A stretch of 64,000 nt of DNA from Amoebophrya sp. A120 (GCA_905178155.1 CAJINV010000005.1:2420054-2484053); one strand, 5' to 3'; numbered from the stretch's first letter, positions 348 through 62,300 are shown. A program made the numbers and translations. Notes: a model not told the origin generated them from the letters alone.

Positions 348-3300
348 CCACCGAACAAAACCGCGGGCGCGATCGACTATTCCACCACGAAATTTGAGTG
401 CAAAAAGTGCCCGGAGGACAGACCCACAAGCCCGCCAAAGTCAAAATCCATCACGTTTTGTGCGAAGACTGGGAAGCAAACTTTGAAAATGGATGTCTCC
501 GTGAAGGACCCGAGCATTTTTGACGAACCGAAAACGGTCGAAGCGATTTTGGCGACTATGAAGGCTGACGGCGTTTTTGGGGAAAAGGACAGTTATGAGG
601 CGACGTTGGACGTGGTGAAGCCTCCTGCCATGGCGCTGCTGCAAAAAGACACCAGGACTGATGTTCTTGAAAAGCAGCTTGCGGAACAACAGACATCGAG
701 CGAGGAAATTGTAGACCGAGATAGGGATTTGCGAAGTACTTCTTATCCGTCGTATGACTCATCATCGCAGCCGGAAGGTGGCACGGCTGCACGGCCGGAA
801 GATGGAGAACAATTTTCGAATTATGCAGCAGCCGCAGCTTCCACCGAACGCGAACCTGACCTCGCGTCGCTTCTCGGCGCGGACTACGACCCAAACGACC
901 CGCTAGTCGCCGACCAGCTTCCCTCGCAATTTTTGCAAGTTAGCTCGAGTTCCACAACCTCCTCCGAAGCAAGGACGATTCTAACGCTGATTTTCACGGT
1001 GATAAACCAGCTTCCCCCCCTCGAGTACCCGGCAATTCAAGTCGCGTCTGGGTCAACTGGAAAGCCGTACCCCACGTTGCAGAAAGCGTTTCGCCTAATC
1101 TTCCCGCCGGAGGTTTATAATACCATTCAGATCAAGTTGCCGTTCGTCACTTGTGAGCCGGGTTTTGGGCAATCAGCGACGACGAACATGTGCGAAGTCT
1201 GCGCCCCCGGGTTTTTCGGCCCGGGCGGGTTGAGCCCGGGCTTGTGTCAAGTTTGCTCCGCACGGAAAACGAGCAACGCGGGCTCCGCGTTCTCGGATGC
1301 GGACTGCTACGGGGGGTGCGAACCGGGAAACGGGGTCAACTTTGCAACGAACAAATGCGAGCCTTGCAAACCGAACCTCTACTCCCCGGGTGGGAACGTG
1401 GAATGCAGCGAGTGCCCCCTCGGCATGACCAGTCCGGAAGGCGCGGGGTCGCTCCGGGACTGCACGGCGGCGTGCGAGCCCGGTTTCGGGGTCGCCGGCG
1501 CGACCTGCCAACTCTGCCCAAGTGGAACGTTCTCCGCGGGCGGGACGGATCCCTGCGAGCCCTGCCCCGCCGGATCCACGACGAACACGACGGGGTCCAC
1601 CAGCTCCGGGCAGTGCGGGCAATGCGGCCCGGAGTTCTGCAACTACCGAGGGCAGGCGACGGGGAACATTTGGAATTTGGACAACGGGGGCTGCCAGTGC
1701 AAATGCGAAACCGGGTACTCGGCCATGACGAACTGCGGCAGCTGCACCCAAGGGTACGAGAAGGATTCCACCGGTGCTTGCAGACCCTCCAGCGAGCGGT
1801 GCACGGTGAAAAGAAGTTGCAATAACCGCGGCGTCCCAATCAAACAGTGGAAAGATAGCACAGACACCCTCGAGCCCTGCCAGTGCATGTGCAAGGATAA
1901 CCGCTTGGACCCAACCACCAACTGCCTCTCCTGCAAAGCCTCGACCAACCTGAATCCGGAGGAAAACTGCGAGAACTGCATGGTGCCCCAACAGGACCGA
2001 TCGACCAACTGCAACACCTGCACCTCCGACGAGAAGCTCGACGCGTTCAAAAACTGCACGAAGTGCTTGCCCGGGGCGATCAACTGCACCGCGCCGAACC
2101 GGACTTTCGAAATGCTGTGGTTCTACTTGGGCGATCCGATGCACCGGAAGATGGAGTTCGAGATGGTGGAGCCGGTGGATTTCTCCTTGCAATTATCCCC
2201 CACGACGAAATCCTTCCAAACCAAAGCGCTCCAGACGTTGATCGACACCGCGGAACTGAAAGTCTTACCGAAGCCGTTTCCGAAAGTGAAGTTAAACAAC
2301 TACCGGTCCACCAAGACCTTCAAGTTCCTCGCGGGGAAATTACGGGATGAAAAGTTCAATTTCAGAATCACGGCCGGTTGGCCGGACGAGGTTGCGAACG
2401 AGACCAATGTGGACACGAAGGACGTGGCGATTTTGCGGCGAATATGAACTGCAAAAGTATCGTACTCGTATATAATTGCATCACAAATTTCCTCAGCATG
2501 AGAAATAAAATTTGTAATGCGAATTTACCTGAAGCTGAAGAAGAAGATTTGTAATGCATGATTGCAGTACGAGTGCGATACTTTTGCACAGGATAGCGGA
2601 AAATGGAACAAAATCGCTTCGCCGAAAATTCCCCCGTGCCGCTGGATTTTGCGGTAACCGCGACCAAGCTGTTGGAGTTCGACCTTTTGCCGTCCACTAC
2701 CGAGCCGGTTTCCTTCAAACTCCTGCCGCAATCGAAAAGATTGGAGTTGCCGAAAATCACGACGCCGTATGCGGACGAGAAGCTATATGCATCGCAAAAG
2801 TAAAAGTATCGCACTAGTTTGAAGAGTTGCAACACAAATTTTGTCAAGAACAAACATGCAATTTGTCATGCTAGTTTAGGTAGAAGGTTGGATTTGTCAT
2901 GCACGACTGCAATCACTACGGGCACTACGATACTTTTGCAGAGGATAAGCCAGGGCCGTTCAAAATCGCCCCGGAGGATTTGCCGAATCCGAAGTTCCGG
3001 ATCACGCCGATCCGGAAGTATTTCATCACGGAACTCTCCCAGCCGGTGAAGTTCGCGTTCAAAGTCACCGGCTCGACCCAAAAACTTTCCTTCAACGTGG
3101 AGAAGCAACCGCCGCAGTTTATCGATCAAAAAGCGGCCGAGGAGTGGAAGAGGGAGGAGGAGCGCAGGAAGAATCCCGTGATGCGAATCACGGACAAATT
3201 TCCCCAGCCGACCGGGTGCCGCATCGGGTACAACCGGATCGACTCGAAGAAGGACTGCGAGAAAGCGGCGGCGGCGATTCCAACCTGTAGACTGCCCGAA

Positions 3301-6300
3301 GTGGATCCGCGGATGAAGCCGAATCGGGATTCGAACCCGTTGAACGAAAAGTGCGAAACCAGGTGCAGTTCCGGCGGCGATATGGCGCAATCAAAGGAAT
3401 GCGAATTGCTTCCGCACATGAAGCCCAAATTCCCGTTTCACGTGGAGAACCGGCCGTTGATTAAACAGGGGTGCTACATCTCCGTGCAGAAGCAGGAGGT
3501 GGTCTGGAACGAGAACACAGTGGAAGAGGCGGCGCTGCCGGAGCGGGAGTACTACCACGTGTTGTGTCAGAAAGACGAGTTCTCCTACGGATTCCCCGAC
3601 CACCCGGCCGTGCAGTTCAGGATGCAGTTCGATCTGGACACGTTGTTTCACATCCCGGATGGGGTGAGTTGCAACATGCTTTTGGCGGTCTTGAAGTCGG
3701 ATGACTTCCTGGAGAAGTGGATCCCAACGGTGAAGGAGAATGCGGGCATCAACCAGTACGGGTCGGTGAACCTAGCCGGGTTGACGTGCCGGGGAACGGG
3801 CGTGGAGGGTTCCAGTGCGAAAGATGACGACAAAGCGGTCACGAAGTTCAACCAGAAAAGAAAGAAAGAATTGCTGAAGAAAGAAAAGGAGGATTTTGCG
3901 GATTCGAACGACTTTTCGCTGCTAGAAGTCGACAACGCGATGTTGAGCGGTGGTGATGATAGTGACGGTGAAGCTGAAGCGAAAAAGAAAGAAGTAGTTC
4001 CCGATTCAGAAAAATCAGATGTCGCAGCCCTGAACACGCGTCGCGGAGGACAAGAACTTCTGACCGGAAAAAGCACCAGCGAAGTTTTCGGCACCCCCGC
4101 GCCTCTCACCGTGGACCCGGATCTGGAGGACGAAGAGCCGATTTCCGTGCACTGGCAAGTCGTTGCGACGACGATCGACTTGTATGCAAGAAAAAAACTG
4201 TGTAAGTGTAAGTCTGTGATGCAAAGCATGTAACACTGTTACGCTTGTCATGCTAGGCAACCATGAAGTCCTATTTCATTTGTGTTTTCACTTACTAGCT
4301 GCGCATGACAGGCTTCGTCTGTCATGCAGAGCAGATTTGTCATGCCGTCACCCCAAGACACCTACACTAACACAGTTTTTTTGTTGGATAACTTGGACGT
4401 GGACGTGAAAGATGGTGAGGAGTTGAAGCTGGTGAAAAGAGTCGGTCTGGGCGTAAGAGAAAGTTTAGCAAACAGCAAAGCCATCACGGACCTCGGCGCG
4501 CAGCTCGCGGGGATCGCAGGTCCGATCCGAGCCCGGGTGATTTCGATCGACAAAGTGCCGTCCCCCTTTCCGAAGGAGGGTTTGCACGGCGACTACCCGG
4601 TGCCCGGTCTCCTCGGTGAGATAAAGCTCCGCGTGTACCACCCAGATTTGTGGATTTTGCGGAATAAACTTCTGATGTGGGTTTTTGGCCAAACTCTCAA
4701 ACCCTTTTTCGGGGTCCGGAACATGACCATGGTGCGGATCTCGGATCAGCCGGCGCCGAAAAACGAAACAATGTTCGAAGTACTGCAGCGAGAGGCGTCG
4801 ATTTTGCACCGGAAGCACAGACGGCACCGGAAGTGGGAAAGGAAAGTGTTGCACCAGGGGAAATTGTCGCCGATCGAGGTGTTTTTTCCGCGAAAGATGA
4901 CGAATCCGAGCATCAAGGAACAGAAAGAGGCGCTGGAGAAGCAATTGCAGCTGAGCAACGACTTTTACGGAGTCTACGACTTTGATGACAAGGAGTCCTT
5001 GCCTACTCTGGGTACTATGGAAGATGATCATCAAGAGCATAGAGTAGAACAGCCACAAGTTATTTCACCACCCCAAGCGACAGGTGGTCCTTTATTGCCA
5101 CTGGAAAACGACGATCTGTTGTTTGACGAAAGGCCACCGCACAACATACAGAACCAGCATCTGCAGCGGCTTACCCTCCTGCAAGTGCCGACGATCAAGA
5201 ACAAGAATTTTGAACTCGACATGGCGCAGCACATGCGGAACCACTTAACGCACTTCGGGATGGACTTCGACCACGATCATTTTCACTTCCCCGTTCCAAC
5301 CGAGCATCACGACATGTTTCTAGACCATAACGGCGATTTCGAGGTCCACACAGGAGCAACAGCGGCGGAGGCAAAAAGCAGCGGCGACGAGGAAAGATCT
5401 TCTCAAAATGAACACGGTGGCGCTTTTCTCCAAACCGATGCGAACGCCATGAGCCCCCTTCACGGCCACCTGGAAAATAAAAACGTCCCTGCGAAATCAA
5501 AAATTCTATCAGCTCGGAAAAACATAAACAAGACCACCGCCCGCCAGGTCTACCTGTCCGCCCTCCAGCTTCGCACGAAGGCGTCGAAACCGCTGAAAAA
5601 GCCGAAGACGGTGTACATCACGTATTTGGCGCAGGACGAGAGATTCCGGAACAATGTGCCGGAGATGGAGAAAACCAAAGAGATTATCATGAACTTGAAA
5701 CCCTCCACCGTCACTCCCTATGCGCGGAACTACTGCCAACAGCCGGACATGGTGACCCAACGGTTTTTTGAGCCCAAAATCTTGACGCCGAAGCAGGTGC
5801 ATGAATTGCTACACCCCTCTAGGCCGAAGGTGGTGAAGAAGAAGAAAAAGGAGCCTCCGAAGGATCTGACGAAGACGTGGAATATTCCGCCGAGAATGAT
5901 GAACGAGACGAAACCGAATCTAACCGCGCCAGTGAAACCAGAAGAGGCTGAGAAAGCGATCGCGCAGATGAATGTGACGGAAACGAGTACGACGACGGTG
6001 GAGCCGGAGTCGGAAGAGGAAGAGGAGGAAGAAGAGTCATCAACGGAGGAAACTGTTGATGAAGCGACCACGACCATGAACATCACCGGAGTGCACGACG
6101 AAGAAAAAGAGCAGAACATCACCACGCAACATACGGCATTCTCAACTGTTACATCCTCAACTGTTACATGGATTTGTGATGCAAGAACTGCAACAGTGAA
6201 ATAGGGTTCTTTGCGCTTCTTGAATGACAGAGTTGGCAAAGATTCTGAGCCTGTTGGGCTCGTCGAGAATTTGTCATGCGAAGCAGCTTGATCGTGTCGA

Positions 6301-9300
6301 TTCTAATTGCAATTTTGCATGAGAAAGCATGCAACACCAGTTGAGAATGTAACATTTGAGAACGCCATACAGCAAGTCTTGAACACGACAACCGGCGAGG
6401 TCGAGGATATGGATTGCAAAAATGTCTGGGTCTGGCAGACTGCAAGACTTGTGATGCACATTTTGCATGACCCACGAGGTCTGGAATGCAGAACCTAGCA
6501 TGAGAGATTCGGTGAGGTCTCCATCATGCCAATGCTGCATGAGAAACTCCCTCGCAGCTTGGTCGAAAGTGGACAGCTTTTGGCAGTCATGCAACACAGA
6601 TTTTTGCATGATTCTGATTTAGCATGACAAGTTCCACCTTTCCAGACCCAGACACTTTTGCATTTGATAGAGGAGGTGAAGGTGCAAAACGTGTACAACG
6701 AAACGACAGGGCAGATGGAGGAGGTATCCTGCGCAAAAGTATCGTACTCGTAGTAATCGCAATCATGCATTACAAACTTCCATCCCAAGGGAAAACAGCA
6801 TGACAAATTCCATTTATCATGCTGAGCGAATTTGTCATGCGATTTCTACTAGTACGATGCTTTTGCAATGCATAGGAAGTTCCAATCGCAAACGCAACGA
6901 ATTTAACGGTGACCCCGATCTCTCCCCCGGCGCCTGGTGTTGGGACGACGGCGGACGTCACAAACGCGCAACAGGCGATTGTGACGCAGTCCGGCGTGGC
7001 CTTGCTGTTCTGCAACCCGGGGCAGATATCAAATGCAACATAATGAAACCCTAGGTCTCAGAGAGCTAAACTTCTGATGCTGCATCTGGATGCTAAAAAC
7101 ATCTGTATTGCATGAGCAGCAAGAGGAATCAAATTTGGTTACGGGGAGAGGACATTTGTCATGCAGGATGCGCATCGATTTCGATGAGCGCTCAAAAAAA
7201 CTGTGATGCTAAGGCATACATCACAGACATCACGGATCATGGAAAATGTGCATGACAAACTTGTTCTCTCCCAGACTCAGACATGTTTGCAGTTCATAGC
7301 AGAAGGTGGTGGATGACCATTGCGAGGAGTGCCCGTACGGAACTTATTCGACGATTGGTGTGGAGTGTTTGGAGTGTCCGACCAACATGACCACCGTTGC
7401 GCCCTCCGCGACGTCTTTGGACTCCTGCGTCGGGAACTGTGAGCAGGGGTACGGCTGGACGGGCGCGATTTGTCGGCAGTGCGTGGACGCGGAGTACTCG
7501 GGCGCCGCGCCGGATGATCCCTGCCAAAAGTGCCCGGAGGGCATGATCGGCATCAACGCGACGTACGAGCGAATGATCGAGAACGTTTTCACCTTCCACA
7601 TGCACGATTTCCACCCGAAGCGGGTGATTGAGATGAACGCGACCGCGAATGTGGCGAACCAAAAGTTTGCTGTCAACGCGGATCAGAAGGAGAACGGGTT
7701 TGACTTAACGCCAAGATCGGAGAAAACCAAAAACATTGACTTCACCCCGAGAAGCGAGAAAAACCAAATCGATTTCACACCGCACGACGAGAAGTACGCG
7801 GTTCAAGCAGCTGCGAGGTCTATGGAAGTGTCAGAATCGAAATCAACAAAATCGAAATAATTTGTGATGCATAAAATCGATACCACTTGGAGCCTCAGTT
7901 TTCAAGTGGCGCATGACAAATTTCGGGAGCACCAAAATCCAGTCTGTCATGCTGTTTGGGCAAAGAAGACTGCTCCTGGCGTGCTGCTCCGGCAGCACAT
8001 CGCCTTCCCCTAATCAGGCTTGCAATCGGTCTCATTTGCCTACTCCCCAACACAGGCCTTACTTGCCCTACATTTTACGCATTGCAAATTTTTCGATTTT
8101 GTCGATTTCGATCCTGACACATCCATAAGGTCGGAGCCCGCGAAGTTCGACGTGTCTGGGAAACAACCCACTGCGTATCCTGAGTAAAAACATCCCCACA
8201 CCAGAGTCAAGATGGGGACTTTGCAACACAAACCTAGAACTTTTGGGGGTCACGCATCACAAGTTGCAGTCCGTAGTGTAGTGCAGGTTCGCAAAGCCAG
8301 CTGCATCAGAAATCCATCTGCTGATCCTATTTACAGCATTACAAATTCCAAAACACGACTAAAAATGGTTCTCCTGGCGATGCGCATTACAAATGTTCCC
8401 GTCATTGCAAATCTGCATGACAACTCTGGCGTGGGGACGTTTTTACTCAGGATACTGCGGGCGTGAAAATCACGGCGGACAGCCCCACCGCGGATCTGAA
8501 AATTCTCCCGAAAGACCAGCCGGAATCGAATGTGACCGTGTCTGCGAAGGAGGGAGAAACACAAATGAAGTTGCAACCAAAGAAACAACCGCAGTCGGAG
8601 TTCAGTGTAAACCCCGGGAGCCAAAAAACGAACCAATTCGATGTCCCCCTGGGGGAAAAGACGGAAAAGAAAGCGCAGTTCGGAGTTTTAACTCCGGACC
8701 AGACCAATCTGCTTTCCCGGCGGAAATTTCTTGCGAACCAAGCCGGGAAGTTTCCCTACATTCCGGGGATCGACTACATCCCGAGCAGCGACTTCCTCGA
8801 TGCGTGGTCGGCGAAGTGCAAGCCCAATTGCGCATTAGGACATTACTTCAACATCACCGTCGGGGCGTGTCAAGTTTGCCCCGTGAACCAGTACGGGTAC
8901 GGCGGGCCGATGCTGCAGTGCTTCCGCTGCCGTCCGCCGTTGGTGACCCGCGATCCGGCGGGCGGGGCTGGGAGTGATGAGAAGTGTTTTCCCCCCTGTA
9001 AAGCGGGGGAACGCTGGGGCCCGGAGGATAAGAACGATCCGGCGAGCAAGTTCGTCTGCGCGCCGTGCGAGTACGGGACCTACGCAACGGGTTCCCACTG
9101 GTCCGGCGCGCCCGGCTTGGGCGACAAGTGGCTTTCGCACCCGTGGCAGTGCGAGAAGTGCTCAGACAAAAAGCCGATCACGTCCACGAGCGGTGCAGTC
9201 TCCGACTTGCAGTGCGCGGTGCCGCCAATCACGAAAATGGCGATCAAAATCTCCGTATCAACTGCAAATATCGACGAAATCTGGGTCGTGTGGGAGGTTG

Positions 9301-12300
9301 CCAGGCCTGCTCTGCTTTTCATCTGCCATGAAGCATGTCTCGAAGTGCCTCTGTGGTGCATCAGGGCGAAAAGTGAATCCTCCTGACGCCTGCCATGCAG
9401 ATAAAAGTTAGCCTGCTCGCGAAATTATACGCAACAGATAGTAGGTCAGAAAACAAAAACACTATTGTCATGCTCCTCGGCTGCGTATTGCATTGGGCGT
9501 ATGTATCATTACATTTACAACTTTCTCGCATTACAGCTTTTACTGTCCAGACCCATATCGGTATTCGCAATGCATAACCCGCTGCGGGAGAATCGGTGCA
9601 AGCGGACACGTTTGACGACCCTGTAGTTTTGAAGGGAATGCAAGACTCGATTTCCGACTGGCTGCAAGCCTCCGACGTGCAGCTCTCCGTGGCCGCGAAT
9701 GAGGAGGGGACAACGGACCAAACGGTTTCGCAAATCGACTTGCTGCAACTCGCCACTGGGAGGAAGATCAAAAAGAAACTGCGCAAAGCGGCCACGGACC
9801 GGGAGATTCTGCTCGCGGTGGAGGCCACGGGGACGCCGCCGGGCGGAGTCACCGCGTCGGTTGACGATTTGTCGCAGACGATGCAGTCCAATCCGGATCT
9901 AGCAACTCTGGACCTGAACACGGAGGGGGCTGTGACGCACTGCGAGCCCGGGTACGGGATTTTCCCGGAGAACGCAACGTCGCCACTCTGCAGCATCTGC
10001 CCGGTCGGGTACTACGGACTGGGCGGGGAGAACCCACCGTGTATCGCCTGTCAGGAAGGGTTCAGTTCGGCGGCGACCAGCACAAACATCACCGCCTGCT
10101 TCCCCATCTGCGACAGTGGATACGGCGTGCACCCCGCGACGGGGGAGTGTGCGATTTGTCTGCCGGGGTTTTATGGGCCGGGGGGAGCGTCGGAACCCTG
10201 CCGGGAGTGCCCGCCCGGGAAGACGTCGAAGGTCGGAAGTCAGTACGAACAGGACTGTAAGCGGGAGTGCGAACTGGGCCGGTTCTGGTCGCAGGACAAG
10301 GAGTGCGCGGCCTGTCCGGTGCATACCTACAACGACGGGACCGACCCGATGGCGACCACGTGCAAGCAGTGTCCGATGGGGACGCTGACCGACTTTTCCG
10401 GCTCGGTTTCGAAACGAGATTGCGGGAAGTGCAACGATTTATTGCAGCTCTGCAACAACCGCGGGTTGTCGGTCACCGGCAACACCTGGGACGACGCGCA
10501 CAACGGCTGTCAGTGTGTCTGCGAGGAGGGGTACGACCACTGTACCCACTGCGCCACCTGCTTACCGGACTTCGAGAAAGACCGTTTCGGCAACTGCCGT
10601 CCGGCCTCCGACAAATGCCACCCGATCGAGGATTGCGCGAACCGAGGTAGTATCAACTGTAAAAATGTCTGGGTCTGGAAGGTCACAACTTGTAATGCTG
10701 TCTGTGGATTCTAAAAAAATTTGTATTGCATGACCAGCAAGAGGGGTCGGGTTTGTCCTACGCGGAGAGGGCATTTCGCATGCGGTAGAGGTATCACAAA
10801 GCCTCCTAAAAATCTGTGGTGCTACGGCATGTATTACAGACATAACGGCTCATGGAAAATATGCATGACAAATCTAGAAATCTTCCAGACCCAGACATTT
10901 TTGCAGTTGATAGGTAGGTTGTTGGAGGATTTCCGAGACGCAGAGTCCGGCTATTGCCGCTGCGCGTGCTACAACCCGAACGTGTTCGACCGGAAAACGG
11001 GGTGCAAGGAATGCGTGGATGGGCACAAGCTCGATCCGGAGCAGAATTGCGTCGTTTGCAAACTCGGCGAGATTTGGGACCCGGAAACCGCGTGCGAAAC
11101 TTGCTCGGACCCGAACGCCGATCCGCAGAAGGAGTGTCTGGAGTGTAAAGAGAACTACTTCCGGGACGAGGAGATCACGGACGGGAAGTGTATCCCGACT
11201 CCCACGACCACGACCACCCCGATCTGTTACCCGGGGCACGAACCGGTGAAGATCGATTTGATGTCGAAGAACCAGACCGCCGGCTTGAAGGCGGACGACG
11301 AAAACGACGAGTCTGATGCGGACGAAAAATCCATGACAGCTGGGGTCTTAGATCCGACCACCGCCAACGCGCCGCCGGGCGCCCCCGGGTCACGGTTCGA
11401 GTGCAAGCCCTGCCCGCTTGGGACGTACAGCCGCGTCGGCTTGCCGTGCGTCCAGTGCCCCACGGACATGACGACGAGAACGGTTGGTTCCGTCGAATAC
11501 GAAGAGTGCGTCGGGAACTGCAGTGTCGGTTTCGGTTGGATGGGGGCGAGTTGTAAGAAGTGCGGCGCCCACGAGTTCGCTTTGTTCCCCGACAAGCCCT
11601 GCGACCAGTGCCCGGCGGGGTACCGGGTTCTGCCGAAGTGGCGCGACATTTTCGCGGAAATCACGCAGAAGGAACGGCACGCGCTGTTGTTTGAGGCGGC
11701 GCGGAAGGACACGGACGAGTTTTTGCACGAACTTGCGATCATGATCGTGAAGCTGCAGGATCATGGGGGGCAGAACAACCCGAACGGGGAAGAAGATAAC
11801 ACTTTCCCGCCTCTGAGCGTGAATAACCCGGCGGAACTGGCACAAGAGTTGATGGAATTCGCGACGGAGGAAGGGAAGAAGATGCTGGAAATGTTGCGTG
11901 AAAAAGCAAAGATGTTCAAGTCGGACAAAAATGCGAATTCGCAAGCCGCTCGGCTGATGCGGAAACTAGCAAGCGAGGTGGAAGCCGTCTCGAAGAACGG
12001 TGCAAACGACTTTATTCCGGATCAGGAAGAATCTGTTTCTGTTCTCTCACGACACAAGAGAAACGGCACCGCGAACATGACTCTTTCTCCGGATTCGACG
12101 AACTTGAAAACGAACGTGGCACCGGATCCCACCACAGGCGTGGTAAATGCAACGACGTCCGTGAAAGCGGGTTTCATGCGGTACTTCAAAGTGAACACAA
12201 CCGCGAATACTTCCGCCCACGCCATGGATTTCGATTTGCCGCCGAAATTCCGTGTGGTGCCCGCCGGGAATGGGGATCCGGTGGTGTTGCTCCCGCCAGA

Positions 12301-51300: not shown

Positions 51301-51657
51301 CAGTCGTATCAGCCAAACTTACAAGCCATGTCTCAAGAATTGGCGGAGAGAACGGCGGAGAAGAAAATTTTTGCCGAAAGCAACGACGAAGCAGCTGGCA
51401 CAACTTCTGCGTCGTCCTCTCCTCGTGTAGAGGTAGCACGCACGGCGCAGCGTGGTAGTGCAGATGAAGCAGGAGTAACAATGGTGCACTATGGAAAAGG
51501 AGCAGGAGATGAGCCTGGAAATAAAGGGAAAACTACCAGCAACCACGCTCCGAATCTGCTCATGACCCAAACAACGGAAAGCAGACCGAGCTCCGCTCCG
51601 AAAAAACCCATCGGGTCTCTGGTGAAAGGCTTGTCGTTCTTCAGACAAACTAGATAA
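348..51657 (+). CDS. Giant multi-exon Cys-rich, probably secreted or surface protein (~12,200 aa in window, 5'-partial) with GCC2/GCC3 (Ephrin_rec_like) repeats, EGF-like modules, a CAP domain and low-complexity linkers
   Basis: The successive + strand ORFs (264, 2603, 2899, 4324, 7306, 8463, 9596, 10721, 12627, 16753, 17230, 19697, 22697 ... 47030, 50728) join into one frame when each TAT...ATA element plus one 5-bp direct repeat is removed (49/49 frame-consistent). Stop TAA at 51655-51657. Start at 348 is a tentative acceptor (tttgcag); the true 5' end is probably upstream of the window. Confidence 0.85.
1150..2090 (+). other. Cys-rich supermodule copy 1 (GCC2/GCC3-like repeats + EGF-like)
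   Basis: CxPGxG...CxxCPxGxFS repeats followed by CNYRGQATGNIWNLDNGGCQCKCETGY. Confidence 0.8.
2443..2595. mobile_element. Introner 1, TIR family A (TATnnnnTGCAAAAGTATCG)
   Basis: TIRs; DR gcgaa/gcgga; 158-nt removal restores frame. Confidence 0.88.
2786..2947. mobile_element. Introner 2, family A
   Basis: TIRs; DR agcta/agcca; frame restored. Confidence 0.88.
4183..4390. mobile_element. Introner 3, family B (TATsCAAGAAAAAAAC)
   Basis: TIRs; perfect DR acttg; frame restored. Confidence 0.92.
6132..6369. mobile_element. Introner 4, family J (TATGGCGTTCTCAA; TAC start here)
   Basis: TIRs; DR caaca/cagca; frame restored. Confidence 0.88.
6408..6669. mobile_element. Introner 5, family C (TATnnnnTGCAAAAATGTCTGGGTCTGG)
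   Basis: TIRs; perfect DR gagga; frame restored. Confidence 0.93.
6725..6874. mobile_element. Introner 6, family A
   Basis: TIRs; DR ggagg/ggaag; frame restored. Confidence 0.88.
7027..7298. mobile_element. Introner 7, family C (left TIR decayed)
   Basis: Perfect DR gcaga; interior matches introner 14; frame restored. Confidence 0.88.
7821..8127. mobile_element. Introner 8, family D (TATGGAnnTGTCAGnATnGAAATC)
   Basis: Long TIRs; perfect DR aggtc; frame restored. Confidence 0.92.
8176..8454. mobile_element. Introner 9, family E (TATCCTnnGTAAAAACnTCCCCAC)
   Basis: TIRs; perfect DR ctgcg; frame restored. Confidence 0.92.
9256..9576. mobile_element. Introner 10, degenerate family C
   Basis: Decayed TIRs; DR ctccg/acccg; 326-nt removal restores frame. 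Confidence 0.72.
9935..11200 (+). other. Cys-rich supermodule copy 2
   Basis: Same architecture; CNNRGLSVTGNTWDDAHNGCQCVCEEGY; interrupted by introner 10651-10912. Confidence 0.8.
10651..10912. mobile_element. Introner 11, family C
   Basis: TIRs; perfect DR ggtag; frame restored. Confidence 0.93.
12305..12454. mobile_element. Introner 12, family A
   Basis: TIRs; perfect DR acatg; frame restored. Confidence 0.92.
12496..12801. mobile_element. Introner 13, family F (TATTACAATGAAAnTGCC)
   Basis: TIRs; perfect DR tccag; frame restored. Confidence 0.9.
13785..14640 (+). other. Cys-rich supermodule copy 3
   Basis: CNYRGTPKGNTWDSNGCMCGCDEGY preceded by CPxGYYS repeats. Confidence 0.8.
14905..15495 (+). 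other. CAP/SCP/PR-1 domain within the giant protein
   Basis: Motifs HNLYRCLHNVPPLIWN, FGENIA, WWYEDE, IGHYTQVVWGDSWELGC (CRISP signature) and VLCQYGRGGNV. Confidence 0.92.
16432..16694. mobile_element. Introner 14, family C
   Basis: TIRs; perfect DR cgcgg; frame restored. Confidence 0.93.
17124..17283. mobile_element. Introner 15, family A
   Basis: TIRs; perfect DR actgt; frame restored. Confidence 0.92.
18944..19349. mobile_element. Introner 16, family G (TATnnnAGGAAAAnTCCCCCCTCCCCATAT), with small nested insert
   Basis: TIRs; perfect DR tggtg; frame restored; 85 nt longer than siblings 22 and 46. Confidence 0.92.
19430..19686. mobile_element. Introner 17, family C
   Basis: TIRs; perfect DR cgagt; frame restored. 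Confidence 0.93.
20921..21440. repeat. Copy 1 of a diverged ~500-bp duplicated domain inside the nested insertion
   Basis: Shares blocks (gccgctgcacgaaga, ccccggtactcgagcacgc, ccccatgaccaacctatgaaa, accgagcgcacccgcttcctc, atgccgagggacttt, gggacggttga) with 22006-22499. Confidence 0.85.
22006..22499. repeat. Copy 2 of the duplicated domain
   Basis: Same conserved blocks in the same order as 20921-21440. Confidence 0.85.
23318..23579. mobile_element. Introner 19, family C
   Basis: TIRs; DR acgac/ccgac; frame restored; reverse complement of introner 5. Confidence 0.92.
24203..24348. mobile_element. Introner 20, family A (TAC start)
   Basis: TIRs; poor DR cgttt/aggtt; 151-nt removal restores frame. 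Confidence 0.78.
24460..24627 (+). other. Probable canonical GT-AG intron (168 nt, in frame, stopless)
   Basis: T-rich stretch gtatag...ttttccaacgcacag; removal gives EWTG-FDD. No TIR. Confidence 0.5.
25195..25446. mobile_element. Introner 21, family C (TAC start)
   Basis: TIRs; perfect DR gaacg; frame restored. Confidence 0.92.
26310..26630. mobile_element. Introner 22, family G
   Basis: TIRs; DR gcctg/gccgg; frame restored. Confidence 0.9.
28806..29044. mobile_element. Introner 23, family J
   Basis: TIRs; DR gcgtc/acttc; frame restored. Confidence 0.82.
29817..29967. mobile_element. Introner 24, family A
   Basis: TIRs; perfect DR ggagc; frame restored. Confidence 0.92.
31204..31418. mobile_element. 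Introner 25, family H (TATGAnAGTGCACAACT)
   Basis: TIRs; perfect DR gggac; frame restored. Confidence 0.92.
32291..32554. mobile_element. Introner 26, family C
   Basis: TIRs; perfect DR gacgg; frame restored. Confidence 0.93.
33138..33381. mobile_element. Introner 27, family J
   Basis: TIRs; perfect DR ggagt; frame restored; opposite orientation to 4 and 23. Confidence 0.92.
33458..33719. mobile_element. Introner 28, family C
   Basis: TIRs; perfect DR tggaa; frame restored. Confidence 0.93.
34546..34798. mobile_element. Introner 29, family C
   Basis: TIRs; perfect DR ggtga; removal in frame (the element itself is stopless in that frame). Confidence 0.92.
34871..35026. mobile_element. Introner 30, family A
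   Basis: TIRs; DR cgccg/cgcct; frame restored. Confidence 0.9.
36347..36609. mobile_element. Introner 31, family C
   Basis: TIRs; DR cctgg/cctag; frame restored. Confidence 0.9.
36656..36907. mobile_element. Introner 32, family C
   Basis: TIRs; perfect DR tctac; frame restored. Confidence 0.93.
37274..37533. mobile_element. Introner 33, family C
   Basis: TIRs; perfect DR gacac; frame restored. Confidence 0.93.
38071..38297. mobile_element. Introner 34, family I (TATCGnAGGAAAAAAGTGTT)
   Basis: TIRs; DR agcag/agtag; frame restored. Confidence 0.88.
38358..38609. mobile_element. Introner 35, family C
   Basis: TIRs; perfect DR ccgcg; close sibling of 32 and 45; frame restored. Confidence 0.93.
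38894..39149. mobile_element. Introner 36, family C
   Basis: TIRs; perfect DR ttcac; reverse complement of 29; frame restored. Confidence 0.92.
39531..39795. mobile_element. Introner 37, family C
   Basis: TIRs; perfect DR gcatg; frame restored. Confidence 0.93.
41016..41277. mobile_element. Introner 38, family C
   Basis: TIRs; perfect DR ggcgg; reverse complement of 11; frame restored. Confidence 0.93.
41327..41591. mobile_element. Introner 39, family C (TAC start)
   Basis: TIRs; perfect DR tcgca; frame restored. Confidence 0.92.
42785..43047. mobile_element. Introner 40, family C
   Basis: TIRs; DR tggcg/cggcg; frame restored. Confidence 0.91.
43135..43343. mobile_element. Introner 41, family B
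   Basis: TIRs; perfect DR cagca; frame restored. Confidence 0.93.
43757..43976. mobile_element. Introner 42, family H
   Basis: TIRs; perfect DR gacgg; opposite orientation to 25; frame restored. Confidence 0.92.
44100..44364. mobile_element. Introner 43, family C
   Basis: TIRs; DR tgccc/tgcct; frame restored. Confidence 0.91.
44424..44635. mobile_element. Introner 44, family B-like
   Basis: TIRs; perfect DR ggatc; frame restored. Confidence 0.9.
46008..46259. mobile_element. Introner 45, family C
   Basis: TIRs; perfect DR tgccg; frame restored. Confidence 0.93.
46331..46651. mobile_element. Introner 46, family G
   Basis: TIRs; perfect DR gtctt; frame restored. Confidence 0.92.
46848..47114. 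mobile_element. Introner 47, family C (TAC start)
   Basis: TIRs; perfect DR ggtgt; frame restored. Confidence 0.92.
50223..50438. mobile_element. Introner 48, family B
   Basis: TIRs; perfect DR gagct; frame restored. Confidence 0.92.
50487..50739. mobile_element. Introner 49, family C
   Basis: TIRs; perfect DR gagag; sibling of 28; frame restored. Confidence 0.92.
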
Positions 51658-52862: not shown

Positions 52863-52896
52863 TTTGATTTTTTCTACAGCTGTAGAAAAAATCAAA
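52863..52896. repeat. Perfect 34-bp palindrome
   Basis: tttgattttttctacag|ctgtagaaaaaatcaaa; a related hairpin lies at ~52707-52741. Confidence 0.85.
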
Positions 52897-53139
52897 CGGG
52901 ACTCGTCCGAAACCGAGAGAAGCGAGAAAATGGCAAGAACTCGAGAAGTTCTCACTTTTTCTCGAAGTTCTCGCTTTTTCTCGAAAGTCTTCTCGTCCCG
53001 CCCATTCGAGGCCAGCGGCCGAAAACCTCCAAAATACGGTAGAAAAAATCAAACACCTCCGGGGAAAATCAAAAGACCTCCACCCAGAAGCGGAAAAGCC
53101 GAATACACGCGCACGCGCGAAGCGATGCGCGAAGCCCCA

Positions 53140-56363: not shown

Positions 56364-59300
56364 ATGACCTCGAAGAACGTGAGCAAGGCGAAGTCCAAAG
56401 CCCCCAGTGGGGGCGGCAAAAATGCGGGCAGTGCTGGCAATGGTACCGCCACCAAGGTCGTGCGCCCAAAGGAAATAAAAGTGCCACCAGCTGTAGTCGT
56501 GCCAACAGAAGTGACGCCTGGCGGGGTTCTTGTGACTGAGGACACAAATGCGGTCACCACAGGCCGGCTCACCGACCTGCCAGAAGTTACCAGGCCGGCG
56601 GTGTTGGACACCATAGAACAGAGGTAATTCTATCTATTTTGTCGCGTTTGGTAGGAATGAGCGAGATCCTGACCCCGATGAATTGTTTCATGGAAGCGAT
56701 ATTTCTATTGGCTCCATGATTTTTTGAGGTCCTTCCTTCCTATCGTGCAGAGATAGATATCTTCAGATGCGGTTTATAAGATGATTTTTGCATGCTCAAG
56801 AAACGGAACAACTACCCCTGGTCCACAGGTACACCACCGGCAACCAAGCCTACACCTTTGTCAGTGACGACCTCCTGGTTGCGGTCTCACCAAAACTGCA
56901 CACTTTAACGAAACATGCCACGGCTTCAAATTCAACATCGAGTTCTAATCCCGGCATTGATACCCCCGCACAGCAGCAGCTCCCCCAGCAGCCCGACCCG
57001 CATGCATTCGACCAAGAACACCTGGATTTTTACTCGCGCTACTCCTCTGGCGACCAGCTCCCGGCGAGGTTTTTCCCGCGTCGCATGCGAGACGAGTACA
57101 AAGCGTCAGTTTTTTCAGCACGGTCGAGGGCTGGTTCGAGGGAATCGTTTCCGGCACAGCTGCATCCGGCTAAATCACCCACGCCGGCCCTGTCTTCGAC
57201 ACCAGGCGGCAATAAGAGGCACAAGAACCTCCAGCTGCAAAGTATGCGCACTGTCGAGCCTCACTTGTTCGAGATGCCGGAGAAGGCTTTTCGGGATTTA
57301 CTGTTCTTGAAACAGAATCAAAGCCTTGTTTTCCTAGGGGAAGAGACAAGAACCGCGTTCGACATGTCGTTGGAGTTCCTGTGCTACAAAAGCAGCAGCA
57401 GCAGCAGCAGCAGTAGTTCTTCATCTTCGTCGACGTCTACCTGTGTAGCAACATCAAGGGAGCCCGGAACAGAATCTGATAGTACGCACGCGCAGATAGA
57501 AGATAGAATACGCAGCGCGATGCTCCTCTTAGAAACCTTTGGTCACAGCGGTGGCGCACAAAGCAGTGCAAATTCTGTGCCTCACTTTGGAAAGTTTCTG
57601 CAATTGTACTTCGGCGCGGACACTGTGGGGCGACCGGTGATTTTAGGAGCGACGATACGACAATTTTTGCTGGAGAGCAAGCAGGTCCTGGAGCAGAGCG
57701 GCGAGGCGATTCTGCAGTGCTTTTTGCAGTTGGAGAACGCCGGGTTATTACAGGGTTTGCTCGACTACAGGAATGAAGACGGTACAGCTCCTGTCGAGGG
57801 GCAAGAGCAAGGAGCTGATTTGTTTTCAGACACCGAGACCGCTGTGCATAGCCGGCTGCCAAGCACGCAGCGTCTCATCCGGACGTTTTTGGACCATGCG
57901 GCTGCTACAGAAGAAGCTGGGGTCGCTGTTGCGAGAAATAGTCCGGAGACCAATATTAAAGGACTGGGAAACCACGGCGCTCCTGTCCCGATAGTACAGG
58001 CCGAAATGTCCCCACGAGGCCCAAAAATCAGCAGCCTGGGAAGAGACTACGAGGAGTCCTCACGTGAACGGCAGGGCCGACTACAGGCTTTGGAAGCCAT
58101 TTTTGGCAGAGCGTCGCCTTTCGACGGAGCAGAAGATGATAGGTCAGCGACAACCCGATCCTCATCGTTCGAAGCCACCTGCGACGCCCTGGAGGTGTGC
58201 GGGTTTTCGGAAGAGAAGGTGGAAAACCTTTTTCAAACCGTCGCGGGCATCCGATGTATCGCAATTGCTGCTACAGCTACAGAGGGAACTACCGCCGTCG
58301 ATGCGGAACAGAAGAGGACTCTATTGAGACTTGCCAACGCTCTTCTCGGATTCTTGGATAGCACTAGCAGCAGCAGCAGTACAACCAGTTTTTACCTCGG
58401 CGGAGCGACCGCGGCTGTTGTGCACTCTAGCCAAGAAGATTATGCGGACGTCGCCACACCGATCCATGCTCCAAAGACGAAAACACAAAAACAGGCTGAG
58501 CAAACGGCGGATTTGGTCGACAAGAACGAGTCGCCGCTGCTGGTAGAAACCAAAATCGTGCCAATGCTAGAAGCGAAGCAGCACCAGAACGGCGGGATCA
58601 CCGAAACCACGCCCAGTTCGGAACTCGCGACTTTAGCGCAGAACCTTTACCAGAATCTGTTTTCTTTCCTGGTTCGCGCTTTGAATGTCTGTTTAAAGAC
58701 GCAACAGCGAAGAAAGATAAACGGTGCTTCTAGTGCCACGGCTCAACGAGAAGCGACATCAAACCCTACACGACGTCGTGGTAAGTTTCTTCTAAACCCG
58801 ACAGACACCCCGAACTTTGAGGCCTTCGTCGCAAAAAACTTTTTGTCTACCGACTCTGATGTTGCGGATCTAGACGCGGTTTCGAGCTGCATCGGCTTGT
58901 TAGACGGTGGTTTCAGAATGGTTCGACAACCACGACCATCCTCCACGATGAAAATGGCATCTGCAGGAACTCCACGGAAAAATAAATCGCAGTCCCTGGA
59001 CGCTCTGCTTCAGAACTACGTGAACGACAAATTTGCGCATTTTCTCTCGTCCATTCTGTTTCAAAAGGAGTACGAAGCGGTTGCGGAGGAACTTGGGAAT
59101 GACGTGGTGCAGGAACTGTATGCGCATTGCGACAAAAAGGACCATCCGCTGGTTTTGGGGAAAACGCTCGCGAGTCTGGAAACTGCGATCTTCCCCGAGT
59201 TGAAAATCGGTTTAAAGACGTCCTCTGAAAATAATGCTGCTCCCAATGAAAATGCGTCACCGAATACTAAAACGGAAAGCGCACGACCGTCAAGCTCCTC

Positions 59301-62300
59301 CTCGAAGCAGGCCAAGAGCAAGGCGAAAAAATCTTCAAATAAAGTTGCGGGCGTAGGAGCTGCATCTACTACGGAAGCAAGTGGTGCGACCACCTCTGCG
59401 GCGACAATGTCCTTGAGTGAACGCCTCCGGAAGAAAATTTCCAATTTGAAACACGACTACATTTCCATCCGGGCAGGAGAAATCTTCGCGAAGAACAAAA
59501 ATAAAGCCAATGTCGGGTTGGAGCTAGGCGTCAGGCATTTTGGAGGAGAAGAGCCGACCTGGTATGATGTTGCCGAGTTTGAAACTACCTTGGAGCGAGC
59601 GGAAAATAAGACCACCGCCTGGATGAATATCGGTGCAGAAGATATGGATCTGTCAGGATTGAAATCGTCAAAGTTGAAATTATTTGTGATGCATAAAATG
59701 CAAGGCATGAAGTGCTTGTCTTGCCGGGATGGCAAGTGAGGCCGACCGTCAGCCTGTTTAGGGTTTGAAATAGACATGCTGAAGTAGCATGACAAAAGCA
59801 GTCTCCTGTGCCCAAACAGCATGACAAACTGGATTCCGGTGCTCGAAAAATTTGTCATGCGCCGCTTGATAAGTGGGCTTGCGACTGGTATCGGTTTCAT
59901 GCATGACAAATTATTTCAACTTTGTCGATTTCAAACCTGACGCTTCCATAGAAGACACCAGCAGTAGTGCCGGTCCTCTTTTCCTCTCACTTTGTGACAA
60001 CAGCGAGAATCTCGTTGTCCGCTTCATGTGCCGCGACCCCACGAAGCCCACGACCTCGTCGTCCCAAGCGGAGAACGGTCGTGCCGCGGTGGCACAAAGC
60101 AAGCCCTTTTGTTCATCCTTTGTGCTGCACACGGACACAATGGACACGATGGCGATGCTGAAGCAGTTACTCTCCAGGTCTAAAGTGCGGTTCGTCCTTG
60201 GCGTTGAAGCTGGAACCGTTTCTACTACTGCGTCTTCGGAGGCTAGTACAACAAGGACGGATTTTTTACCAAGCTTCAACTTCGATCGCGAGGCGTTTGA
60301 CGCGCAACTACGCAAATTCGATTTATACTCCGTCGCCGGGATCCGGAAGCGCGGGTATGCGCACTGTTTATCACATTCTGAGTTTCTGAAGCGATACAAA
60401 GCGATAGCAGCTCCATCATCTCCAGGAGGGTCGACTACATCGAGTGCAGCAAAAATAGTAGACGCTGTTGTTTCCGGTCTGAACGAGGCAATTGGCGGCC
60501 AATTGCTCGTGTCGGATAAAGATAGAAGAAGCGAACTCCTCATCCAATGCGGGAAATCCAAAGTCTTCTTCAAAGAAGCCACTGCAAGTCTCCTTGAGAA
60601 GAAGAAAGTGATCCTCTCCAGCCAGTTCGCGACCAGGATACAGAAAGTCTGGCGCGGAAAAATAATCCGGAAGGAGCTGAAAGCCATGCCGATTTTGCTT
60701 CGGAAGATCCAGGACTTCCCAAAGAGGTTGAAGCTTGATTACAACGAATCGGAAGAGCTGACCGCGGTATCCTACCAAAACTTCTCCGAAGTGGAGAAGC
60801 ACGTCAATCAATGTGCGGAACTACTGGACTTGGTGCACGAGTCGACCTTTTGTATTGATGCGGGTCAAGATAATGAACAGCAACAGCAGGCAGCACCAGC
60901 AGAAGCACCAGCAGACCAAGGGCTGGTGCAGCTGCGTCGTCGAGAATTAGGTAATATACAACTGAATCCGGTGAAGACCCTGGAGCAGTGCCGCCAGAGA
61001 CTCCAGAACGTCGGCAATTTGTTTCAGCACGTCGAGCAGATGTGCGAAACGGAGGACCGGACCATGGAGATTTTCAGCATGCTGCAACGGTGTGCGGCTT
61101 TAGGTATGGGCCACTGTTTTGCCGTCCAGCAGCTCCAAGCGAGACACGACAATTTGGTCGCGCAGAGCAGCAGAGTTTTGCAGCTGAAGCGGTTGACGAA
61201 GAGGTGTCAGAGGTTTTTGGCGAAGACAGAAGGGCTGTTTGAACCTGTAGTGGTACAACAACTACCGGGTGGTGGAGGTAGTACAAATACATCTTCAGTG
61301 GAGATTTCCAATCTCGACCGTGAAGCCTTCAAACTGATGCGGAAAAGCGAGTTGAGCCAGGAGCTCAACGCCTCGGCCCTGCTTCTATCCGAGGAGGAAG
61401 ACAATAATTCTCCTAGCGGCGGAGGTGTTTCGACTGTTTTTACACCAAGAGCCACGAGAGCTCCAAACGACGGCGGACAGCACATCAGTAACCAAGACCA
61501 GGAGACGCGCTTCCAAAAATGCGTCGAGGAGGTTTTGCAGGCGTTTTTGACCGATTCTCATCGATTGTTAAACGAAATAGCGGTTTTCCAGCGGGAAGTT
61601 GAAATTATCGGAGAGCGCGACAGCGCCGTTGCGACCTGGACGAAACTCCTGACTTTCGACCCGTTTGAGGCCTTCTGTGACCTGACCTACACCGCGGTGC
61701 CGAAAGTGAAAAGTAGACACGCGGAAGTGAAGGAAAAAATGCTTCTTCAGCAACAGCTAGATGGAAAGAACAGTAGCGAAAATATTAAAAAAACCGTACA
61801 ACGCCTCAACACGCTCGAGCTGGAGTTCAACGCGAGAAGCAAGGCCTCGTCCAGTAGTAGATTCGGCAACTACAGCACCAGAACCGACAGCGTTTTCAGT
61901 TCGGGGGCGCCGAGCAGGAATTTGTCAACGGCGCAAACGACATCAAAACGTGGTCAAGAAATGATGGAGGATAGTGCTGCTGATCAAGAGATGGCAGTGG
62001 CGATCGATCTTTCCTCCGAAGCGCCACAGTTCCAGAATTTGTCGACAGCAGTTCCTCCGGGAGGCACCGGCCAGCTGACCACAGGAAACGACGACGAAGA
62101 CTACCCGATTAATATGCTTCAGCCCCAGCAGCTCGAAATCACGTCCTTCCTCCCATCCCCAACAAATAACTTTTTGAGCGACACGCTTCTCTCCCTGCTG
62201 CGCCTAGCCCCGAAGGGCACGCTTGACTCCGCGGGATGGCGGCGGGTTGGGAGCCTTGCTGAAGACCATAGCTTTAGCTTTATTCCGGCAGAAAGCTGCA

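What the first reader, a model, noticed from the sequence alone, without database searches (positions are those of the whole stretch)
2443..59950. Fifty TAT...ATA inverted-repeat elements act as frame-perfect non-canonical introns
Seen: 50 elements (146-406 bp, one expanded to 2.5 kb) with TIRs and a 5-bp direct repeat. Removing the element plus exactly one repeat copy restores the ORF at 50/50 sites. The repeats have no fixed sequence, and in the cases I tried no register gave GT...AG. Known: TIR + fixed-length TSD + no coding capacity is the MITE/DNA-transposon signature. From memory, introners with inverted and direct repeats were described in Amoebophrya spp. (Farhat et al. 2021), so the class itself is probably not new, but its splicing mechanism is unresolved as far as I know. 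Inference: an alternative splicing or excision system precise enough to remove 49 elements from one transcript.
Basis: partly seen in the sequence, partly recalled or inferred. Interest (0 to 1): 0.93.

Follow-up and report, generated by a model that had tools for sequence, protein, structure and literature searches.

The report
Hairpin transposon introns, fixed cut register
Fifty small hairpin-ended transposon copies interrupt two genes of what is likely the marine parasite Amoebophrya, and RNA-like contigs lack the tested copies exactly, together with one 5-base duplication; the class is already published, but the junctions suggest a fixed cutting rule that its describers left open.

Summary
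Confirmed. 50 elements (146-406 bp, one 2,467 bp) have inverted ends and a 5-bp direct repeat (36 of 50 perfect). Removing element+5 nt at 49 sites gives a 12,337-codon open frame; the 50th lies in a second gene. RNA-like contigs skip exactly element+5 nt at 14 of 15 elements laid (15th joint not listed); a DNA-like run keeps them. The class is known: these match the introner elements of Amoebophrya A120 (Farhat 2021), probably the same families. New here: five imperfect repeats with RNA joints allow only one fixed register, intron = N1-TAT...ATA-N4, whereas Farhat left the borders unknown. This is suggestive only: random cuts would fit one register 52% of the time. Both orientations are removed, and no AG end is preferred. 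Best reading: hairpin-measuring RNA splicing that ignores GT/AG, like Euglena's N3/N5 code; a U1-less spliceosome is the main rival. Corrections: 4 of 50 can be read GT...AG and 5 begin TAC. The scan earlier noted similar element-plus-one-duplication introns in Euglena and a dinoflagellate.

The parts
231..51657 (+). Gene 1: open frame of 12,337 codons after removal of 49 elements (12,251 aa from the first ATG at 489; true start not fixed). Cys-rich ephrin-receptor-like repeats and a CAP domain; likely a giant surface or secreted protein
56364..64000 (+). Gene 2 (runs off the window): myosin-head-like protein with one canonical intron and one element
56624..56828 (+). Predicted canonical GT-AG intron of gene 2 (205 nt; restores the frame, no RNA laid)
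2443..2595 (.). Element, ~150-bp family, repeat 4/5
2786..2947 (.). Element, repeat 4/5
4183..4390 (.). Element, ~210-bp family, repeat 5/5
6132..6369 (.). Element starting TAC, repeat 4/5
6408..6669 (.). Element, ~262-bp family, repeat 5/5
6725..6874 (.). Element, ~150-bp family, repeat 4/5
7027..7298 (.). Element, ~262-bp family, repeat 5/5
7821..8127 (.). Element, ~307-bp family, repeat 5/5; GT...AG register possible
8176..8454 (.). Element of 279 bp, repeat 5/5; short relative of the 2,467-bp element
9256..9576 (.). Element of 321 bp, repeat 3/5
10651..10912 (.). Element, repeat 5/5; GT...AG register possible
12305..12454 (.). Element, repeat 5/5
12496..12801 (.). Element, repeat 5/5
16432..16694 (.). 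Element, repeat 5/5
17124..17283 (.). Element, repeat 5/5
18944..19349 (.). Element of 406 bp, repeat 5/5
19430..19686 (.). Element, repeat 5/5
20404..22870 (.). Element of 2,467 bp: a 279-bp-family copy expanded by a nested insert, repeat 5/5; no RNA laid here
20431..22638 (-). Nested insert of 2,188 bp between two identical 20-bp repeats (20431-20450, 22619-22638), with a T run at its left end and no transposase or RT match; looks like a retroposed insertion
23318..23579 (.). Element, repeat 4/5
24203..24348 (.). Element of 146 bp starting TAC, repeat 3/5
25195..25446 (.). Element starting TAC, repeat 5/5
26310..26630 (.). Element, repeat 4/5
28806..29044 (.). Element, repeat 3/5
29817..29967 (.). 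Element, repeat 5/5
31204..31418 (.). Element, repeat 5/5
32291..32554 (.). Element, repeat 5/5
33138..33381 (.). Element, repeat 5/5
33458..33719 (.). Element, repeat 5/5
34546..34798 (.). Element, repeat 5/5; GT...AG register possible; the only one that would read through if retained
34871..35026 (.). Element, repeat mismatch at position 5; joint 34865/35027 keeps the right-copy base (register at most 4)
36347..36609 (.). Element, mismatch at position 4; joint 36345/36614 keeps the left-copy base (register at least 4)
36656..36907 (.). Element; joint skips element+5
37274..37533. Element; joint not listed, contig piece ends at 37268 as expected
38071..38297 (.). Element, mismatch at position 3; joint 38068/38301 (register at least 3)
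38358..38609 (.). Element; joint skips element+5
38894..39149 (.). Element; joint skips element+5
39531..39795 (.). Element; joint skips element+5
41016..41277 (.). Element; joint skips element+5; GC...AG register possible
41327..41591 (.). Element starting TAC; joint skips element+5
42785..43047 (.). Element, mismatch at position 1; joint 42780/43049 (register at least 1)
43135..43343 (.). Element; joint skips element+5
43757..43976 (.). Element; joint skips element+5
44100..44364 (.). Element, mismatch at position 5; joint 44093/44364 in three runs keeps the right-copy base (register at most 4)
44424..44635 (.). Element; joint skips element+5
46008..46259 (.). Element, repeat 5/5
46331..46651 (.). 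Element, repeat 5/5
46848..47114 (.). Element starting TAC, repeat 5/5; GT...AG register possible
50223..50438 (.). Element, repeat 5/5
50487..50739 (.). Element, repeat 5/5
59643..59950 (.). Element in gene 2, ~307-bp family, repeat 5/5; only +5 restores the frame

Best explanation
These are transposon-like inserts with inverted ends that RNA-like contigs lack together with exactly one 5-base duplication, and they are likely cut from the pre-mRNA by a machinery that measures from the terminal hairpin, 1 base before TAT and 4 bases after ATA, without reading GT or AG. Steps: (1) inferred: a transposase encoded elsewhere inserts a non-autonomous element and duplicates 5 bp; (2) predicted: in the transcript the two inverted ends pair and bring the ends together, in either orientation; (3) shown for 14 sites: the product lacks element+5 nt, restoring the pre-insertion coding sequence; (4) inferred from five imperfect repeats, if the rule is fixed: the cuts fall at N1 and N4; (5) inferred, least certain: the catalyst is a dedicated cut-and-join pathway, as proposed for Euglena's nonconventional introns, rather than ordinary splice-site recognition.
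For: Exact element+5 skips at 14 listed joints in runs X1-X3, each non-GT...AG in every register the joint allows. Contig coordinates leave no room for extra letters at 36345, 38068, 38888, 39525, 41010/41321, 42780/43129, 43751, 44093 and 44418. Register bounds: 34871 at most 4, 44100 at most 4, 36347 at least 4, 38071 at least 3, 42785 at least 1, so 4 is the only single value, and cutting flush at TAT or at ATA is excluded as a general rule. In that register the intron starts GT 22, AT 10, CT 10, TT 8 and ends AG in only 5 of 50, with 15 different end dinucleotides. The ~262-bp family is removed in both orientations: 3 plus and 3 minus among the RNA-tested copies. 47 of 49 folded elements pair at least 10 of their first 20 bases with the 3' end (no shuffle control, expected from the repeats). 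8 of 8 listed contigs of the DNA-like run X5 run from exon into the elements on both sides at depth 36-45. Euglena shows by knock-in that a fixed 3-nt/5-nt spacer around an inverted motif governs splicing (PMC12501133; abstract and section 8).
Against: Five sites are few. With cuts drawn at random within the repeat, five such sites fit one register 52% of the time and pin one value 33% of the time. Farhat et al. report splice sites variable relative to the hairpin. The RNA nature of X1-X3 is the tool's guess; they are one sample, assembled contigs only, and no silent stretch or canonical intron was laid as a control. Nothing here identifies the catalyst. A120 keeps nearly all spliceosomal proteins and U2, U4, U5, U6. 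The invariant U+2 and A+3 in this register are also what a spliceosomal donor needs. The terminal T-A pair is formed in only 32 of 49 predicted folds. No transposase was found.
Confidence: 0.5

Rival explanations
1. A modified U2-type spliceosome without U1 removes them. The start N-U-A-U/C serves as a relaxed donor (GUAU when the repeat ends in G), the hairpin brings the ends together, and the 3' cut is set by distance instead of by AG.
For: In register 4, +2 is T and +3 is A in 50 of 50, while +4 varies (45 T, 5 C). G at +1 in 22 of 49 gene-1 sites against 30% expected, p=0.023 uncorrected. Spliceosome largely present and U1 not found in A25/A120. A review reports that Fritillaria's transposon-derived non-canonical introns are spliceosomal and reads Amoebophrya the same way (PMC11282704 section 6). 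All nine predominant A120 motifs in Table S4 start N-T, though aligner placement inside repeats could cause this.
Against: The G excess did not replicate in outside loci: 28 of 103 and 34 of 102, with noisy strand assignment. AG ends only 5 of 50. T+2 and A+3 are also simply the transposon end. The 3' ATA, a possible branch A at -7, varies in 5 of 102 outside elements lying in long frames (not RNA-tested). Orientation does not matter, so no strand-specific internal branch signal is needed.
Confidence: 0.33
2. Removal is at RNA level, but the cut slides within the 5-base repeat from site to site; only the total of element+5 is fixed.
For: Random registers fit the five informative sites about half the time. 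Farhat's Fig. 3 and S23 legends call the sites variable, 1-5 nt from the inverted repeats.
Against: Each of the five sites shows one joint only, the same in each run that covers it (1 to 3 runs), and all fit register 4. Most of the published variability can come from ambiguous placement inside perfect repeats (36 of 50 here).
Confidence: 0.11
3. The elements are precisely eliminated from DNA (IES-like) in some nuclei or stage, and the element-free contigs come from such DNA or its transcripts.
For: X1-X3 are only guessed to be RNA. A symmetric staggered DNA cut would also keep left position 1 and right position 5.
Against: 8 of 8 listed X5 contigs cross the exon-element borders unbroken at even depth 36-45 (its joint table was cut, and contigs drop rare variants). 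Element-free contigs have uneven depth: about 42 in the 3' part, 5.8 at 35-37 kb, and mean depth under 2 in exon bins at 27-32 kb, as a long mRNA would show. Positions 3 and 4 both come from the left copy.
Confidence: 0.04
4. The gene is a pseudogene or an assembly artefact that merely carries repeats.
For: No homologue was found for the gene-2 pieces searched; gene 1 was not searched that way.
Against: Unbroken 12,337-codon frame, Pfam domains in frame, exact joints in RNA-like contigs, DNA-like contigs identical to the window.
Confidence: 0.02

Closest known systems
Introner elements (IEs) of Amoebophrya sp. A120 (Farhat et al. 2021, PMC7789003)
   Same: Inverted repeats starting TAT, seven freer bases, then a run of A (positions 11-13 are A in 42, 44 and 46 of 50); 5-bp direct repeats shown in their Fig. 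S19 legend; non-canonical borders; about 240 nt there, median 256 here; many families; some readable as GT-AG (15% of A120 canonical introns have the same layout; 4 of 50 here). Probably the same elements.
   Different: That paper gives repeats of 3-5 nt, variable splice sites and an unknown border position. Here the repeat is uniformly 5 bp, the removal is element+5 at every RNA-tested site, and imperfect repeats point to one register, N1/N4.
Euglenid nonconventional introns (Nomura et al. 2025, PMC12501133; code N3-CDG...CHG-N5/6|R)
   Same: Non-GT-AG introns bounded by inverted motifs set a fixed, asymmetric distance inside the cut sites, shorter on the donor side; MITE origin proposed; they coexist with GT-AG introns; machinery unknown.
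   Different: Unrelated lineage, CAG/CTG motif with 3+5 spacers against TAT/ATA with 1+4; a purine is preferred at the next exon start in Euglena, none clearly here (10 A, 9 C, 21 G, 10 T). The Euglena code is tested by knock-in, this one rests on five junctions.
Spliceosomal TIR introners of Micromonas and Aureococcus, and Fritillaria non-canonical introns (seen only through PMC11282704 and PMC7789003)
   Same: MITE-like elements with inverted ends and target duplication that leave a scar-free message.
   Different: Those carry or co-opt fixed splice dinucleotides (GT/GC...AG; AG...AC/AT in Fritillaria); here neither end has a fixed dinucleotide apart from the T at +2.
MITEs of TIR DNA transposons with 5-bp duplications (Transib, integrase-like Ginger types; termini recalled, not tested)
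   Same: Short, non-coding, inverted ends, fixed-length duplication, many dispersed copies in both orientations.
   Different: The TAT...ATA ends match no superfamily that I could tie to a call, and no partner transposase was found. PMC12130899 describes A120 TIR introners with Copia/Gypsy-like ORFs that could be the partner; not tested.

Membership tests
Amoebophrya A120-type introner elements | Terminal inverted repeat starting TAT, 7 less conserved bases, then at least three A | tested here: met
   TAT 45, TAC 5 of 50; A at positions 11-13 in 42, 44, 46 of 50; definition
Amoebophrya A120-type introner elements | Direct repeat of 3-5 nt at the exon-intron borders | tested here: met
   5-bp repeat perfect at 36 of 50, 4/5 at 11, 3/5 at 3; shuffle mean 0.79
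Amoebophrya A120-type introner elements | Removed from RNA with non-canonical borders | tested here: met
   14 listed joints of 15 elements laid, none GT...AG; the runs are RNA by the tool's guess only
Amoebophrya A120-type introner elements | Repeated in families across the genome | tested here: met
   15 clusters among 50 copies, 10 with two or more members; 49 of 50 hit outside loci at 74-98% identity; summed depth of tens of thousands on elements against 36-56 in exon-only bins in X5
Amoebophrya A120-type introner elements | Host genome is Amoebophrya A120 | not testable with these tools
   No genome held, organism names coded, protein searches empty; inferred from the element motif only
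MITE (non-autonomous TIR DNA transposon) | Inverted ends, fixed-length target duplication, short and non-coding | tested here: met
   ORFs of the 2,467-bp copy give no Pfam match below E 0.03
MITE (non-autonomous TIR DNA transposon) | An autonomous partner with the same ends that encodes a transposase | tested here: inconclusive
   8 longer TIR pairs (457-1,185 bp) in 145 loci of at most 5.4 kb, longest ORF 198 aa, not scanned for domains; whole genome not available
MITE (non-autonomous TIR DNA transposon) | Empty site with one copy of the 5 bp in a relative or allele | not testable with these tools
Spliceosomal (U2-type) introns | GT/GC donor and AG acceptor | tested here: not met
   GT...AG possible at 4 of 50 and GC...AG at 1; at 0 of 14 RNA-tested joints for GT...AG
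Spliceosomal (U2-type) introns | Lariat with branch adenosine; snRNP dependence | not testable with these tools
   Only assembled contigs were available for the matching organism; raw run X8 gave 3 reads
Euglenid nonconventional introns | CDG...CHG motif with 3-nt and 5/6-nt spacers | tested here: not met
   Motif is TAT...ATA with inferred 1 and 4; it works like them but is not a member
Euglenid nonconventional introns | Fixed spacer length between motif and cut | tested here: inconclusive
   Five sites allow only register 4, but chance of compatibility is 0.52
Euglenid nonconventional introns | Released as full-length circles, not lariats | not testable with these tools
   Feature taken from the review; no suitable reads

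The most novel reading that the evidence does not exclude
Amoebophrya A120-type introners obey one strict splicing code, N1-TAT...ATA-N4, read from the terminal hairpin by a non-spliceosomal machinery. With Euglena's N3/N5 code this would be a second, independently evolved hairpin-ruler pathway whose two spacers add up to the transposon's target duplication, so that any insertion in either orientation is born a scar-free intron.
Probability: 0.4. Interest if true: 0.85.

Novelty: already known. Interest (0 to 1): 0.52.

Why it matters
The elements themselves are published. How tens of thousands of them are removed from messages without GT-AG is still open, and the describing paper could not place the intron borders. 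A fixed register turns that question into sharp tests: it says where lariat or circle junctions must map, which bases of a reporter to change, and how to re-annotate the non-canonical introns that make up over 60% of introns in these genomes. This gene is a good test bed: 49 elements, 28% of its span, and a nested 2.2-kb insert that asks whether only the ends matter.

Tried and rejected
No whole genome is held for the window, and the records behind the outside loci are not held for searching, so no empty sites, orthologues or genome-wide transposase search. No listed holder is on record as RNA. The pattern scan of viral contigs gave 0 matches. Two protein searches with gene-2 pieces found nothing, which is weak evidence. 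Rfam gave 0 matches at gathering score. G preference at intron +1: seen in the window (22 of 49, p=0.023), not replicated outside (28 of 103; 34 of 102); rejected as a requirement. Invariant 3' ATA as a branch signal: 50 of 50 in the window, but 5 of 102 outside elements in long frames differ (GTA, AAA, ATC, ATG, CTA); not upheld. Frame test in outside loci was weak: only 4 informative sites, 3 fit and 1 did not; the long-frame count was 103 of 259 for +5 against 78 for +4 and 68 for +6, so strand calls there are noisy. Rows dropped before those counts: 35 of 297 TIR pairs with repeat match 2 or less, 3 of 262 with short flanks, and 156 or 157 of 259 that could not be oriented. The candidate 56631-56759 (weak inverted repeat, repeat 3/5) was rejected: its removal does not restore a frame, while a GT-AG intron 56624-56828 does. 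Codon effects at the 17 mismatched repeat bases (8 synonymous) do not tell which copy is exonic. The 2,467-bp copy is not an autonomous element. Literature: searches turned up no paper giving a fixed register or mechanism for Amoebophrya introners; one search turned up no title or abstract tying TAT...ATA ends to a superfamily. The library lacks most subscription journals; Roy 2023, Henriet 2019 and Guminska 2021 were not read, nor the figures of Farhat 2021 or the supplements of PMC12130899, which may bear on the register and the transposase.

Full report
Observation. A scan for TAT...ATA pairs with inverted ends, completed by BLAST with the first 44 elements, gives 50 elements between 2443 and 59950. 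They are 146-406 bp long, one is 2,467 bp, the median is 256.5 bp, and they hold 44.5% G+C against 55% in the exons. All end ATA; 45 begin TAT and 5 TAC. The flanking repeat is 5 bp: perfect at 36, 4/5 at 11 and 3/5 at 3 of 50. No other length from 2 to 9 comes near, and shuffled pairing gives 0.79 perfect on average.

Reading frame. Removing each element plus 5 nt at 49 sites joins 231-51654 into 37,011 nt with no stop, followed by the stop at 51655-51657. All 22 sites whose neighbouring exons each have one open frame fit. The product carries ephrin-receptor-like Cys-rich repeats and a CAP domain. The 50th element lies in a second, myosin-head-like gene, where only +5 among +3 to +7 restores the frame. 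That gene also has a predicted ordinary GT-AG intron at 56624-56828, so both intron types occur side by side.

RNA and DNA. Ten runs were listed; none of the holders is on record as RNA, and X1-X4 are RNA by the tool's guess and come from one sample. Contigs of X1-X3 laid on 34799-44800, which holds 15 elements, show 14 joints at elements; a 15th listed joint runs from inside one element to inside another and one further joint was not shown. All 14 skip exactly element+5 nt, and none allows GT...AG. One contig of 10,472 nt spans 10 of the listed joints. In run X5, whose kind is not on record, 8 of 8 listed contigs run from an exon into the elements on both sides, with no differences and depth 36-45, while summed depth on elements reaches tens of thousands. 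I read X5 as DNA that keeps the elements and holds many copies. Raw run X8 gave 3 reads only.

Register. Inside a perfect repeat the cut cannot be placed, but five RNA-tested elements have a mismatch. Counting the left-copy bases kept in the message: 34871 at most 4, 44100 at most 4, 36347 at least 4, 38071 at least 3, 42785 at least 1. If one rule holds, it is 4: the intron is one base, the element, then four bases. Cutting flush with TAT or with ATA cannot be the general rule. The weakness is the number of sites: random registers would be compatible with one value 52% of the time and would pin one value 33% of the time. In register 4 the introns start GT 22, AT 10, CT 10, TT 8 and end in 15 different dinucleotides, AG in 5 of 50.

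What the machinery can read. Families occur in both orientations, and the ~262-bp family is removed in both, 3 and 3 among the tested copies. The symmetric ends are therefore the likely signal. Predicted folds pair the two ends in 47 of 49 elements. Two hints for spliceosomal reading did not hold up. G at +1 was in excess in the window (22 of 49, p=0.023) but not in outside loci (28 of 103, 34 of 102). The 3' ATA is invariant in the window but varies in 5 of 102 outside elements in long frames. The outside set comes from 145 loci of one set of assembly contigs in the metagenome collection, holding the same families at 74-98% identity. There 225 of 297 TIR pairs have a perfect 5-bp repeat. Its strand calls are noisy and it has no RNA test.

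The long copy. Element 20404-22870 is a copy of the 279-bp family (8176-8454) with a 2,188-bp insert between two identical 20-bp repeats and a T run at one end. Its six tested ORFs match no transposase or reverse transcriptase. It looks like a retroposed piece nested in the element, not an autonomous parent. The frame requires its removal, but no RNA was laid there.

What is known. Farhat et al. 2021 (PMC7789003; I read the abstract, passages, sections 10, 11, 12, 16, supplement passages and part 3 of 5 with Table S4; not the figures) describe 29,850 repeated introns in A120 whose inverted repeats start TAT, then seven freer bases, then at least three A, with 3-5-nt direct repeats. They found no U1 snRNA and state that the border position is unknown. 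All nine predominant A120 motifs in their Table S4 start N-T and eight end A-N, which fits register 4 read on either strand but could be aligner bias. PMC12130899 (passages) reports tens of introner introns in single A120 genes and TIR families with Copia/Gypsy-like ORFs. PMC11282704 (passages and section 6) and PMC11453091 (passages) add no mechanism. PMC12501133 (abstract, passages, section 8) shows a fixed 3-nt/5-nt spacer code in Euglena and does not mention Amoebophrya; earlier scan notes led me to it. No tool named the organism; A120 or a close relative is my inference from the motif.

Verdict. The addition is the exact element+5 removal at 14 sites and a candidate fixed code, N1-TAT...ATA-N4, which I did not find in print in searches of an open-access library. 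I put hairpin-measuring, GT/AG-blind splicing by a separate pathway at 0.5, a U1-less spliceosome at 0.33, a sliding cut at 0.11, DNA elimination at 0.04 and pseudogene or artefact at 0.02. Interest 0.52.

Noticed in passing
window 231-51657 (+): After removal of the elements the gene encodes about 12,250 aa with many Cys-rich ephrin-receptor-like repeats, a CAP domain and long low-complexity stretches; possibly a giant surface protein of the parasite. Start codon and any signal peptide not fixed.
   Followed up: partly
window 20431-22638: A 2,188-bp insert with a perfect 20-bp duplication and a terminal T run, containing a ~430-bp internal duplication at 75% identity, nested in an introner; no hit printed in the 145 outside loci.
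   Followed up: partly
window 52700-55590: Intergenic G+C-rich array of ~91-bp units with higher-order periods of about 235, 410 and 496 bp, flanked by repeated short inverted motifs (arms such as 52725-52743 and 55559-55577); looks like a different non-autonomous transposon or foldback element.
   Followed up: partly
window 56364-64000 (+): Gene 2 has only a partial myosin-head match (profile positions 59-196 of 679, E 6e-18) in a frame of at least 2,373 aa, and two longer-protein searches found no relative; a highly diverged myosin-like protein.
   Followed up: partly
window 56631-56759: A weak TAT...ATA inverted repeat (17 of 25) lies inside the predicted canonical intron 56624-56828; chance, or a decayed element that has become an ordinary intron.
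   Followed up: no
window 34546-34798: The only element of 49 whose retention would keep the frame open; it also has a GT...AG register.
   Followed up: no
window 7821, 10651, 34546, 46848: Elements whose 5-bp repeat lets an aligner call them GT-AG; such cases may inflate the published count of canonical introns with inverted repeats.
   Followed up: partly
L003:987-1135, L023, L024, L032, L077 and others: Outside copies with altered terminal triplets (3' GTA, AAA, ATC, ATG, CTA; 5' TGT, TAC, CAT, TTT), several inside long frames; natural mutants that would show which terminal bases splicing needs if RNA were available.
   Followed up: partly
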